A stretch of 64,000 nt of DNA, taken from NCBI GenBank assembly GCA_000004985.1, contig GG738906.1. The stretch is one strand, 5' to 3'. The notes below the pieces were generated by a model, which saw nothing but the letters and a program-made list of their open reading frames with translations, did not search any database and was not told the DNA's origin. This DNA is from Naegleria gruberi (Eukaryota). Each line of letters starts with the position of its first letter. Position 1 is the first letter of the stretch. This document shows, in pieces, positions 48,670-49,609 of this stretch. A program made the translations under genes and the position numbers.

Positions 48670-49609
48670 AATGCCAAGTAACGAGACAGAAATCAAATGT
48701 GTTGTTGTTGGAGACGGAGCTGTTGGTAGGTTTTGTTGAACTGCTTTTTGCAAATAGATGATCATCTAAAATATTAAATTAACCGATATCAAGGTAAAAC
48801 ATGTCTTGTAGGTTTAACTTTTAGAAAATATGCATGGATTTGAGCAATATTGTTTAATTATTGATCCGAAGGTTAAAGTTTATGTCGACAATAAATTTCC
48901 AGAAGGATATGTTCCAACTGTATTCGAAAATACATACCTCATTAAGGAGTATAGAGGACTGAGAGTAAATTTAGGAATTTGGGATACAGGTAAGTGTTTT
49001 AATTAATCAATAGAGTGAGAAATAATGACATATCCTACAGCTGGACAAGAAGATTAGTATGTTTTTATTTGAAATTGAATCTCTTACCATTTTCTTTGTA
49101 GTGGTAGGTTTCTAAATTTACAAACAATTAATCTTCAAATCAGATCGATTGAGACCTCTATCGTATCCAGGAGCTAATATAATTGTATTATGTTTGAGTA
49201 TAGTTGGTATCAAACCATTCGATAATATCAATTACAAGTACGTAAATTTCTTTTTAAAATGAATTTTTAATGAAAATTACAGATGGTTACCTGAAGTTCG
49301 TCATCATTGCCCAAATATTCCATATGTTATAGCAGCAACAAAATCAGATCTTCGAGAAGACCCACAATCTTTAAAGGAATTATCAAATAAGGGTTTACAA
49401 CCAGTTACAACAGAGCAAGTTAAGGAATTTTCAGATGAAATTAAGGCGTTTGGATACCAAGAATGCTCAAGCAGATTGAATAAGGGTGTAAATGAACTCT
49501 TTGAATTAGTAATGAAAGCTGTACTATTTCCAAATGAAGGGGCCAACTCAAAAGCTTCATCTTCAGCTTCATCTGCAGACGCAAAGAAGAAGAATTGTCT
49601 TTTAATGTA
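48670..49609 (+). CDS. Rho/Rac-family small GTPase with C-terminal CaaX (CLLM); ~7 exons including 14-nt, 16-nt and a putative 2-nt micro-exon
   Basis: Reconstructed [45 protein letters not shown]...[32 protein letters not shown]...K|WLPEVRHHCPNIPYVIAATKSDLRED...KKKNCLLM, near-colinear with Rac1. Donors GTAGGT/GTAAGT/GTATGT/GTACGT. Confidence 0.75.

What the first reader, a model, noticed from the sequence alone, without database searches (positions are those of the whole stretch)
48670..49609. Rho GTPase whose conserved motifs are only restored via micro-exons (14 nt, 16 nt and a possible 2-nt exon)
To obtain the universally conserved [10 protein letters not shown] P-loop, the sequence requires a 14-nt exon (gtaaaacatgtctt, encoding K-T-C-L) between two ~65-nt introns. 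The conserved [15 protein letters not shown] switch II can only be reconstituted in two steps. A 16-nt exon (ctggacaagaagatta, encoding A-G-Q-E-D plus 'ta') is followed by a 44-nt intron. Then come the two nucleotides 'tg' flanked by an AG acceptor and a perfect GTAGGT donor, followed by a 40-nt intron and atcgattg.... In other words an apparent 2-nt exon, or a recursive-splicing-like ratchet. Every other reading introduces a stop or destroys the motif.
Basis: seen in the sequence. Interest (0 to 1): 0.5.

Follow-up and report, generated by a model that had tools for sequence, protein, structure and literature searches.

The report
Two-nucleotide exon in Naegleria Rho gene
An unannotated Rho-type GTPase gene of the amoeba Naegleria gruberi can only be read correctly if a 2-base exon, plus 14- and 16-base exons, is spliced in; two sister species share this layout, which has defeated all three public genome annotations.

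Summary
The window is Naegleria gruberi NEG-M. At 48671-49610 (+) lies a 7-exon gene with exons of 55/14/118/16/2/94/328 nt. It encodes a complete 208-aa Rho-family GTPase with P-loop, switch I and II, TKxD, Rho insert and CAAX.

The 2-nt exon (TG, 49102-49103) supplies the last base of a Tyr codon and the first base of an Asp codon in [17 protein letters not shown]. It sits between two complete GT-AG introns of 45 and 40 nt.

The syntenic orthologues in N. fowleri and N. lovaniensis have the same first five exon lengths (55/14/118/16/2). Their introns differ in length and cannot be aligned. In N. lovaniensis the 2-nt exon reads CG (TAC, still Tyr), a synonymous change. Willaertia magna has no intron there.

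dN/dS is 0.06-0.13. Of all canonical splice paths, only this one keeps switch II intact.

All three reference annotations fail here: the gene is missing in N. gruberi, loses 19 aa in N. fowleri, and is split in two in N. lovaniensis.

No RNA evidence was available. Exons of 1 nt are already known in plants and Fusarium, so this is a new member of a known kind.

The parts
48671..49610 (+). Whole coding region of the unannotated Naegleria gruberi Rho-family GTPase gene (ATG to TAA). It has 7 exons and 6 introns and encodes 208 aa ending in the CAAX box CLLM.
   Evidence: Splice model and translation. Pfam Ras/Roc. PDB Rho1/Rac1/Cdc42 hits. Synteny with N. fowleri and N. lovaniensis, downstream of LSM6.
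48671..48725 (+). Exon 1 (55 nt): [18 protein letters not shown] plus the first base of the Gly codon.
   Evidence: It is 55 nt in all three Naegleria species.
48726..48793 (+). Intron 1 (68 nt): GTAGGT...AAG, with TTAAC 10 nt upstream of the 3' end (branch site inferred).
   Evidence: All 17 P-loop-restoring paths use it. Same position in N. fowleri and N. lovaniensis.
48794..48807 (+). Exon 2, a 14-nt micro-exon (gtaaaacatgtctt): completes Gly and encodes K-T-C-L of the P-loop.
   Evidence: It is 14 nt in N. fowleri (gcaagacatgtctg) and N. lovaniensis (gaaagacatgtctg), and is already used by their public gene models.
48808..48871 (+). Intron 2 (64 nt): GTAGGT...AAG.
48872..48989 (+). Exon 3 (118 nt): [22 protein letters not shown]...LGIWDT plus the first base of the Ala codon. 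It contains switch I.
48990..49040 (+). Intron 3 (51 nt): GTAAGT...CAG. Willaertia magna has an intron 1 nt away (phase 0).
49041..49056 (+). Exon 4, a 16-nt micro-exon (ctggacaagaagatta): A-G-Q-E-D plus TA of the Tyr codon.
   Evidence: It is 16 nt in the other two Naegleria species.
49057..49101 (+). Intron 4 (45 nt): GTATGT donor, CTTAC at 49083-49087 (inferred branch site), the most pyrimidine-rich 3' tract of the gene (17/20), TAG acceptor.
   Evidence: It is the only orthologous intron pair with interior similarity between N. gruberi and N. fowleri (ATTGAAT..CTTAC.ATT.TTTTG; z 2.7, p 0.016, not corrected for 5 tests).
49102..49103 (+). Exon 5, the 2-nt exon TG: third base of Tyr (TAT) and first base of Asp (GAT) in switch II.
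   Evidence: It is TG in N. fowleri and CG in N. lovaniensis, giving TAC, which is synonymous. Chance estimates.
49104..49143 (+). Intron 5 (40 nt): GTAGGT donor, TTAAT at 49128-49132 (inferred branch site), CAG acceptor.
   Evidence: The orthologous intron is used in the public N. lovaniensis model 5352-5883.
49144..49237 (+). Exon 6 (94 nt): last two bases of the Asp codon, then [30 protein letters not shown] plus AA of the Lys codon.
   Evidence: Its coding frame is confirmed by 10 synonymous and 4 non-synonymous codon differences against N. fowleri. The other two frames contain stops.
49238..49282 (+). Intron 6 (45 nt, in frame and free of stops): GTACGT...CAG. The position is shared with Willaertia magna and absent in N. 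fowleri and N. lovaniensis.
49283..49610 (+). Exon 7 (328 nt): WLPEVRHHCP...TKSDL (NKxD-type motif), Rho insert, ECSS, polybasic stretch, CLLM, then TAA.

Best explanation
The locus is a functional Rho-family small GTPase gene of Naegleria gruberi that the reference annotation lacks. Its 5' half is cut by five closely spaced, short GT-AG introns into exons of 55, 14, 118, 16 and 2 nt.

The 2-nt exon (TG, 49102-49103) is a real constitutive exon. It lies between two complete introns (45 and 40 nt), each with its own 5' splice site, branch-like motif and 3' YAG. It contributes TA|T and G|AT to the Tyr-Asp pair of switch II.

Inferred mechanism. The acceptor AG of intron 4 and the U1-pairing region of the intron 5 donor overlap, so two spliceosomes cannot work on the two introns at once. 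They must be removed one after the other by intron-defined splicing. This works like a recursive 'ratchet' site, except that two nucleotides are kept. Either order gives the same mRNA. Joining the intron 4 donor directly to the intron 5 acceptor would give GAT TAA, an immediate stop, in all three species. The strong, partly conserved branch and polypyrimidine region of intron 4 plausibly guards against that skip.

Shown: the sequence anatomy, conservation in three species, the synonymous change inside the exon, purifying selection, and the lack of any other canonical path. Inferred: presence of the 2 nt in mature mRNA, stepwise order, branch points, and the protective role of the intron 4 signals.
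For: - Splice model gives an intact 208-aa Rho protein, confirmed by Pfam and PDB hits.
- The window is N. gruberi NEG-M.
- The syntenic N. fowleri locus has exons 55/14/118/16/2 with cag|tg|gtatgt, identical on a second contig apart from one synonymous T/A difference in the 16-nt exon (GGT/GGA).
- The syntenic N. lovaniensis locus has exons 55/14/118/16/2 with cag|cg|gtaggt. TAC is still Tyr.
- Intron lengths differ (45/68/91 and 40/104/55 nt) and the introns do not align.
- Only 1 of 9 open canonical paths in N. gruberi, and 1 of 29 in N. fowleri, keeps switch II intact.
- Exon 6 is under coding constraint in the frame the 2 nt set.
- dN/dS is 0.13 (N. gruberi vs N. fowleri or N. lovaniensis) and 0.055 (N. 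fowleri vs N. lovaniensis).
- Chance of ag-YG-gt is 0.002 to 0.015 per species.
- The W. magna orthologue has GAAGATTATGATAGA in one continuous exon.
- An independent metagenome contig of N. gruberi, 99.7% identical, is unchanged at the micro-exons.
- GTAGGT donors are also used by the neighbouring LSM6 intron in two species and by a W. magna intron.
- Intron 4 has the highest or joint-highest pyrimidine content in each species.
- Precedent: 1-nt exons, and an engineered TT exon, are spliced correctly in Arabidopsis (PMC4674806; PMC8831610; PMC12940212).
Against: No transcript evidence. No protein matching the spliced product exists in the 5.8-billion-protein collection, which includes run-level assemblies, so expression and the exact mRNA are unproven.

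Branch points are only motif guesses. The interior conservation of intron 4 is weak statistically (p 0.016 before correcting for five tests). A second canonical path exists in both N. gruberi and N. fowleri: a 6-nt exon tggtag/tggtat joined to an acceptor 10 nt inside exon 6 (DYGRPLSYP / DYGMPLSYP). It could occur as a minor isoform.
Confidence: 0.88

Rival explanations
1. There is one longer intron from the exon 4 donor (49057) to an acceptor inside exon 6 (49198). This gives an in-frame product, AGQEDY|IVGIKPF, that lacks [19 protein letters not shown]. It is the solution used by the public N. fowleri gene model (AGQEDY|VVDPNPF).
For: The path is canonical and open in N. gruberi and N. fowleri. 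It reproduces the annotated N. fowleri protein P0021 exactly.
Against: The 57 nt it would discard behave as coding sequence in the frame set by the 2-nt exon: 10 synonymous and 4 conservative codon differences, with stops in both other frames. They encode the most conserved Rho motif and align without gaps to Rho1 and Rac1. The deletion removes switch II and the following strand, which established GTPase knowledge says is incompatible with function, yet the gene is under strong purifying selection.
Confidence: 0.04
2. The micro-exon is 6 nt rather than 2 nt. Exon tggtag (49102-49107) uses the donor GTTTCT at 49108 and an acceptor 10 nt inside exon 6 (49153), giving DYGRPLSYP. The analogous N. 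fowleri path gives DYGMPLSYP.
For: It is canonical GT-AG, open in frame, and available in both N. gruberi and N. fowleri.
Against: The donors GTTTCT and GTAATT are poor compared with the overlapping GTAGGT and GTATGT. The path would make the DRLR codons intronic, although they differ between species only at synonymous sites (GAT CGA TTG AGA vs GAT CGT CTG AGG). It replaces the near-invariant DRLR of Rho proteins with GR or GM. It was not examined in N. lovaniensis.
Confidence: 0.03
3. The locus is a decaying pseudogene, or it carries an assembly or sequencing frameshift at the Tyr codon, and the ag-tg-gt arrangement is coincidental.
For: There is no gene model in the N. gruberi reference and no transcript-derived protein in the database. 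The gene has 6 introns in a genome averaging 1.7 exons per gene.
Against: The same architecture is found in three species and on two N. fowleri contigs. An independent metagenome contig has identical exons. dN/dS is 0.06-0.13 and the CAAX box is intact. Chance probability of the site is 0.002 to 0.015 per species.
Confidence: 0.02
4. A non-canonical process supplies the missing bases. Candidates are a non-GT donor 5 nt downstream (GAT TAG TAT G|...) with read-through of TAG, insertional RNA editing, or ribosomal frameshifting.
For: GATTAGTATG is conserved in all three species, so E-D-(TAG)-Y-D could formally be read.
Against: That conservation is simply exon end TA plus the donor GTATG. This reading needs TT or TA donors, a stop-codon read-through and an extra residue inside switch II. 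None of these is needed once ag|YG|gt is recognised, and none explains why that site is kept in three species with a synonymous-only change.
Confidence: 0.01

Closest known systems
Constitutive 1-nt exons of plant APC11 and VPS55 (Guo & Liu 2015, PMC4674806; Yu et al. 2022, PMC8831610)
   Same: An ultra-short exon lies between two complete GT-AG introns. It is indispensable for the reading frame, conserved across species, and absent from reference annotations. Relatives without the introns carry the nucleotide(s) inside a continuous exon, as Willaertia does here.
   Different: This exon is 2 nt, not 1. The host is a heterolobosean (Discoba) protist with a very intron-poor genome. The flanking introns are only 40-104 nt. 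The exon is one of three micro-exons (14, 16 and 2 nt) packed into the first 205 nt of the coding sequence. The plant cases are proven by cDNA, RT-PCR and mutagenesis; this one is not.
1-nt exon of Fusarium CYP621A P450 genes (PMC12940212)
   Same: It was found by restoring a conserved protein motif and exon phase. Gene predictors miss it, and it is conserved among congeners.
   Different: A fungal P450 rather than a protist Rho GTPase, 1 nt rather than 2 nt, and the Fusarium case has SRA read support.
Engineered 2-nt (TT) exon in the Arabidopsis APC11 minigene (PMC4674806)
   Same: It shows that a spliceosome can keep exactly two nucleotides between two introns.
   Different: It is artificial, and it was mis-spliced in rice protoplasts. 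Here the 2-nt exon is natural and conserved.
Recursive splicing at zero-length 'ratchet' sites such as Drosophila Ubx (own knowledge, not checked here)
   Same: A 3' splice site is juxtaposed with a 5' splice site (AG|GT), which forces stepwise removal of the flanking intron segments.
   Different: Ratchet sites leave no nucleotide in the mRNA and subdivide very long introns. Here two nucleotides are retained and the introns are 40-45 nt.
Spliceosomal twin introns (stwintrons) of filamentous fungi (own knowledge, not checked here)
   Same: Two intron units in immediate contact must be excised consecutively.
   Different: In a stwintron the inner intron interrupts a splice signal of the outer one and nothing remains between them. 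Here the two introns are separate, and removing them as a single unit gives a TAA stop.

Membership tests
Rho family of Ras-superfamily small GTPases | Ras-type G domain with P-loop GxxxxGK[S/T], switch I Thr, DxxGQ and [N/T]KxD | tested here: met
   [22 protein letters not shown] and TKSD are present in the spliced product. Pfam Ras 5.8e-42 over residues 9-180.
Rho family of Ras-superfamily small GTPases | Rho-specific switch II ([13 protein letters not shown]) and the Rho insert helix between the TKxD and ECS motifs | tested here: met
   Gap-free alignment to yeast Rho1 across residues 4-191, including the insert region REDPQSLKELSNKGLQPVT. Best PDB hits are Rho1, Rac1, RhoG, Cdc42 and RhoA at 1e-57 to 3e-60.
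Rho family of Ras-superfamily small GTPases | C-terminal polybasic stretch plus CAAX prenylation box | tested here: met
   KKKNCLLM in N. gruberi and KKKKDCLMM in N. fowleri and N. lovaniensis.
Ultra-short (3 nt or less) constitutive spliceosomal micro-exon | Immediately flanked by a canonical acceptor AG and donor GT belonging to two complete introns | tested here: met
   tttgtag|tg|gtaggt. Introns of 45 and 40 nt have GTATGT and GTAGGT donors, CTTAC and TTAAT branch-like motifs, and YAG ends.
Ultra-short (3 nt or less) constitutive spliceosomal micro-exon | Required to keep the reading frame and a conserved motif, with no other canonical path doing so | tested here: met
   Exhaustive enumeration: 1 of 157 paths in N. 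gruberi and 1 of 1205 in N. fowleri.
Ultra-short (3 nt or less) constitutive spliceosomal micro-exon | Conserved in orthologues and evolving as coding sequence | tested here: met
   TG, TG and CG in three Naegleria species. The T>C change is synonymous (TAT to TAC).
Ultra-short (3 nt or less) constitutive spliceosomal micro-exon | The nucleotides are present in the mature mRNA at that junction | not testable with these tools
   No cDNA or RNA-seq was accessible, and no transcript-derived protein is in the collection.
Recursive splicing (zero-length exon / ratchet point) | The 3' and 5' splice sites are directly abutted (AG|GT), so no nucleotide is retained | tested here: not met
   Two nucleotides lie between AG and GT and are needed in the mRNA. 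Removing everything from 49057 to 49143 gives GAT TAA.
Stwintron (spliceosomal twin intron) | An inner intron interrupts a splice signal of an outer intron, and excising both leaves nothing behind | tested here: not met
   Both introns have complete signals of their own, and the 'outer' 87-nt unit yields a stop codon.

The most novel reading that the evidence does not exclude
The 2-nt exon may be more than an annotation curiosity: it could be a built-in splicing switch. The intron 4 donor and the intron 5 acceptor together form a perfectly good 87-nt intron, and using it creates an immediate TAA in all three species. The cell could therefore turn this Rho GTPase on or off, for example during the amoeba-to-flagellate transition or in trogocytosis by N. 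fowleri. The choice would be between ordered two-step 'ratchet' splicing (productive) and one-step removal (a truncated, NMD-prone message). It would be the first natural 2-nt exon described, and the first evidence of recursive-type ordered splicing in Discoba.
Probability: 0.1. Interest if true: 0.7.

Novelty: new member of a known kind. Interest (0 to 1): 0.5.

Why it matters
1. It pushes natural micro-exons of 1-2 nt beyond plants and fungi into Discoba, a deeply diverging and intron-poor lineage. This argues that the ability to splice across a near-zero-length exon is a general property of intron-defined spliceosomes.

2. It is a clean, conserved test case for how a spliceosome handles a 3' and a 5' splice site only 2 nt apart: order of removal, steric exclusion and protection against skipping.

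3. There is a practical consequence. The gene is missing from the N. gruberi reference, lacks switch II in the N. fowleri reference, and is split in two in N. lovaniensis. Inventories of Rho signalling in the brain-eating amoeba and its relatives are therefore wrong at this locus. The same failure probably hides other genes.

4. Two introns only 2 nt apart in Naegleria, both absent in Willaertia, give a datable case for studying closely spaced intron gain or loss.

Tried and rejected
- A scan of metagenome contigs with a C-terminal alignment of the three orthologues returned only distant Rho/Rac genes (42% identity or less, one fragment at 62%). No further orthologues were found.
- Looking up the N. 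gruberi contig through a neighbouring protein failed because it is not on record. The absence of an N. gruberi gene model therefore rests on the protein search.
- A home-made intron finder, meant to build a splice-site matrix from the window, gave only 5 doubtful candidates because introns are rare in this genome. I abandoned it. The splice-site comparison rests on the gene's own introns, LSM6 and the orthologues.
- RNA folding of the intron 4 / exon 5 / intron 5 region gave a hairpin in N. gruberi only (z -2.4). It was not seen in N. fowleri (z -1.7) or N. lovaniensis (z -0.5), so I rejected it as a conserved element.
- A repeat search gave no sign that the introns arose by tandem duplication or share sequence. 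Pairwise intron alignments were not significant except for intron 4.
- Rfam and tRNA scans of the window found nothing.
- Literature searches for Naegleria micro-exons, or for natural 2-nt or 2-bp exons, found nothing relevant.
- Gene structures of a W. magna Rac paralogue and an Acrasis kona Rac showed no intron at the two positions.
- Paralogous Rho genes of N. gruberi itself could not be examined because only the window is available.

Full report
**What the window is.** The sequence is AT-rich (about 32% G+C). Two long ORFs (20817-24317 and 50009-51517) are exact matches to Naegleria gruberi NEG-M proteins EFC38549 and EFC38556. The window is therefore part of a 286-kb N. gruberi scaffold. 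According to PMC8296547, N. gruberi has 33% G+C and averages only 1.7 exons per gene.

**Checking the observation.** The seven exons are:
- 48671-48725 (55 nt)
- 48794-48807 (14 nt)
- 48872-48989 (118 nt)
- 49041-49056 (16 nt)
- 49102-49103 (2 nt, TG)
- 49144-49237 (94 nt)
- 49283-49610 (328 nt)

Joined, they give a 627-nt ORF and a 208-aa protein. All six introns (68, 64, 51, 45, 40 and 45 nt) are GT-AG. Leaving out the TG gives GAT TAA and a scrambled downstream frame. Everything else is as stated.

**What the protein is.**
- It matches Pfam Ras at 5.8e-42.
- Its best solved relatives are yeast Rho1, Rac1, RhoG, Cdc42 and RhoA, at 3e-60 to about 1e-57. The alignment is gap-free across the Rho insert.
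- It has [37 protein letters not shown], ECSS, a polybasic stretch and CLLM.

It is a genuine Rho-family GTPase.

**Is the 2-nt exon the only solution?** I enumerated every path with at most two GT/GC-AG introns of at least 20 nt between 49041 and 49237. That gave 157 paths. Nine stay open in the correct frame, and only the 2-nt-exon path yields [25 protein letters not shown]. The rest delete or replace parts of switch II.

For the P-loop region, 834 of 12,220 paths stay open but only 17 restore GxxxxGK[ST]. All 17 use intron 48726-48793. The 14-nt exon version is the one colinear with the orthologues.

**Comparative evidence.** The protein search returned no N. gruberi model for this gene. 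The only near-identical hit is P0019, a prokaryote-style ORF call on a metagenome contig. That contig is 99.7% identical to the window and is unchanged at all exons.

*N. fowleri.* The nearest named protein is N. fowleri P0021, which reads ...AGQEDY|VVDPNPF... and so lacks 19 residues. Its locus is syntenic, downstream of an LSM gene. Read directly, it has exactly the same architecture. Exons are 55/14/118/16/2 nt, followed by a single 413-nt exon, with ...gacacag|tg|gtatgt.... The product is an intact 205-aa Rho. A second N. fowleri contig shows the same TG exon and flanking introns, with one synonymous T/A difference in the 16-nt exon.

*N. lovaniensis.* I reached the syntenic locus through the neighbouring FMO gene. 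It again has exons of 55/14/118/16/2 nt, and there the 2-nt exon is CG (...caacag|cg|gtaggt...). GAT TA+CG+ATCGT reads D-Y(TAC)-D-R. The only change seen inside the micro-exon is thus the one a Tyr third codon position allows.

*Introns.* Intron lengths differ freely: intron 4 is 45/68/91 nt and intron 5 is 40/104/55 nt. Even between N. fowleri and N. lovaniensis the introns do not align.

*Outgroups.* The Willaertia magna orthologue (57% identical) has GAAGATTATGATAGA in one exon. It has only one, differently placed, intron in the P-loop. It shares intron 3 (1 nt off) and intron 6. A W. magna Rac and an Acrasis kona Rac have no intron at these two sites.

**Selection.** Between N. gruberi and N. 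fowleri, the first 299 coding nt differ at 14, 7 and 49 sites in codon positions 1, 2 and 3. In the 20 codons from the Tyr, which take in the stretch a one-intron solution would delete, 10 codons differ synonymously and 4 conservatively. The other two frames contain stops in both species. Nei-Gojobori dN/dS is 0.13 (N. gruberi vs either relative; dS about 1.7) and 0.055 (N. fowleri vs N. lovaniensis; dS 0.38). The gene is functional. The frame of exon 6 relative to exon 4 really does require 3n+2 extra nucleotides.

**Chance.** In shuffles of the span between the outer splice sites, an ag-YG-gt site leaving two introns of at least 30 nt arises with probability 0.002 (N. gruberi), 0.015 (N. fowleri) and 0.007 (N. 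lovaniensis). The last two species are related, so a simple product overstates independence.

**Anatomy of the two introns.**
- Intron 4 has a GTATGT donor, conserved in all three species. It has CTTAC 15 nt from its end and the most pyrimidine-rich 3' tract in the gene: 17/20 in N. gruberi, 14/20 in N. fowleri and 15/20 in N. lovaniensis, which is the maximum or joint maximum in each.
- Intron 4 is the only orthologous intron pair with interior similarity between N. gruberi and N. fowleri (ATTGAAT..CTTAC.ATT.TTTTG; z 2.7, p 0.016 uncorrected).
- Intron 5 has GTAGGT or GTATGT, plus a TTAAT-type motif 12 nt from its end.
- GTAGGT is a normal donor in this group. It is used by introns 1 and 2 of this gene, by the LSM6 intron in N. 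gruberi and N. fowleri, and by a W. magna intron.

**How it most likely works (inference).** Each intron is a self-sufficient, very short unit, recognised across the intron. The AG of intron 4 (49100-49101) overlaps the -3 position of the intron 5 donor. Two spliceosomes therefore cannot occupy both at once, and the introns must be removed successively. Either order gives the same product.

The alternative pairing, intron 4 donor with intron 5 acceptor, is a plausible 87-nt intron but produces TAA at once in all three species. The strong 3' signals of intron 4 are what one would expect if skipping is selected against. This works like recursive splicing, but it is not a member of that class, because two nucleotides are retained. 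It is not a stwintron either, because both introns are complete and separate.

**Rival explanations.**
- The in-frame 19-aa deletion path is what the N. fowleri annotation uses; I reproduced P0021 exactly. It is contradicted by the coding-type conservation of the deleted stretch.
- A 6-nt-exon path (DYG[R/M]PLSYP) exists in two species. It uses poor donors and would make the synonymously evolving DRLR codons intronic.
- A pseudogene or assembly error is excluded by three species, two haplotigs, an independent contig and low dN/dS.
- Read-through, editing or frameshifting are unnecessary and do not explain the conserved ag|YG|gt.

**State of public annotations.**
- N. gruberi has no model.
- N. 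fowleri has a 186-aa model without switch II, and a second, frameshifted copy of 199 aa.
- N. lovaniensis has two models. One (67 aa) ends at TA+G read into intron 4. The other (158 aa) starts at an ATG inside intron 4 and splices out exactly intron 5.

The 14- and 16-nt exons are therefore already used in the sister-species models. The 2-nt exon is missed everywhere.

**What is known.**
- Constitutive 1-nt exons are documented in plant APC11 and VPS55 (PMC4674806; PMC8831610) and in Fusarium CYP621A (PMC12940212).
- An engineered TT exon was spliced correctly in Arabidopsis protoplasts.
- Searches for natural 2-nt exons, or for micro-exons in Naegleria, found nothing relevant.

This is therefore a new member of a known kind. 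It is probably the first natural 2-nt exon noted and the first ultra-short exon in Discoba. It still awaits RNA confirmation.

**Limits.** No RNA data were reachable. Branch points, order of splicing and the protective role of intron 4 are inferences. Paralogues in N. gruberi could not be inspected, and no further orthologues were found in metagenomes.

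Noticed in passing
window 48079-48455 (+); L001 1972-2729: The LSM6-like gene directly upstream has only 9 coding nucleotides (ATGTCATCG) before a 69-nt GTAGGT...TAG intron (48088-48156). The same M-S-S|intron layout occurs in N. fowleri.
   Followed up: partly
window 49238-49282: Intron 6 of the Rho gene is 45 nt, in frame and free of stops, so retaining it would insert 15 aa (YVNFFLKWIFNENYR). 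A metagenome ORF call (P0019) reads through it. The intron position is shared with Willaertia magna but absent from N. fowleri and N. lovaniensis, which implies loss in that clade.
   Followed up: partly
L001 3001-4348; L006 2001-3386; L039 4624-5883: The public gene models of the orthologue are wrong in both sister species. The N. fowleri model lacks 19 aa of switch II, and a second copy has a frameshifted C-terminus. N. lovaniensis is split into 67-aa and 158-aa models. N. gruberi has no model at all.
   Followed up: yes
window 49083-49109: In N. gruberi only, the intron 4 branch region CUUACCAUU is predicted to pair with AG-UG-GUAGG (acceptor, 2-nt exon and next donor). The MFE z-score is -2.4. 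It is not reproduced in N. fowleri or N. lovaniensis.
   Followed up: partly
window 47469-49907; L004: A metagenome contig (ENA ERZ929261, run ERR1078381) is 99.7% identical to this stretch of N. gruberi. Differences are one intron 1 SNP and small non-coding changes.
   Followed up: partly
window 25325-27787 (+): The exact product of this 821-aa ATG-to-stop ORF is not in the protein collection, although neighbouring N. gruberi ORFs are. The reference model there probably differs in start codon or introns.
   Followed up: no
window 48726, 48808, 49104, 48088: Four of the seven introns examined in this 1.6-kb stretch start with GTAGGT, and three of them with GTAGGTTT. The orthologous N. fowleri introns of the Rho gene use GTACGT or GTATGT instead. 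The sample is too small to say whether this is a species preference.
   Followed up: no
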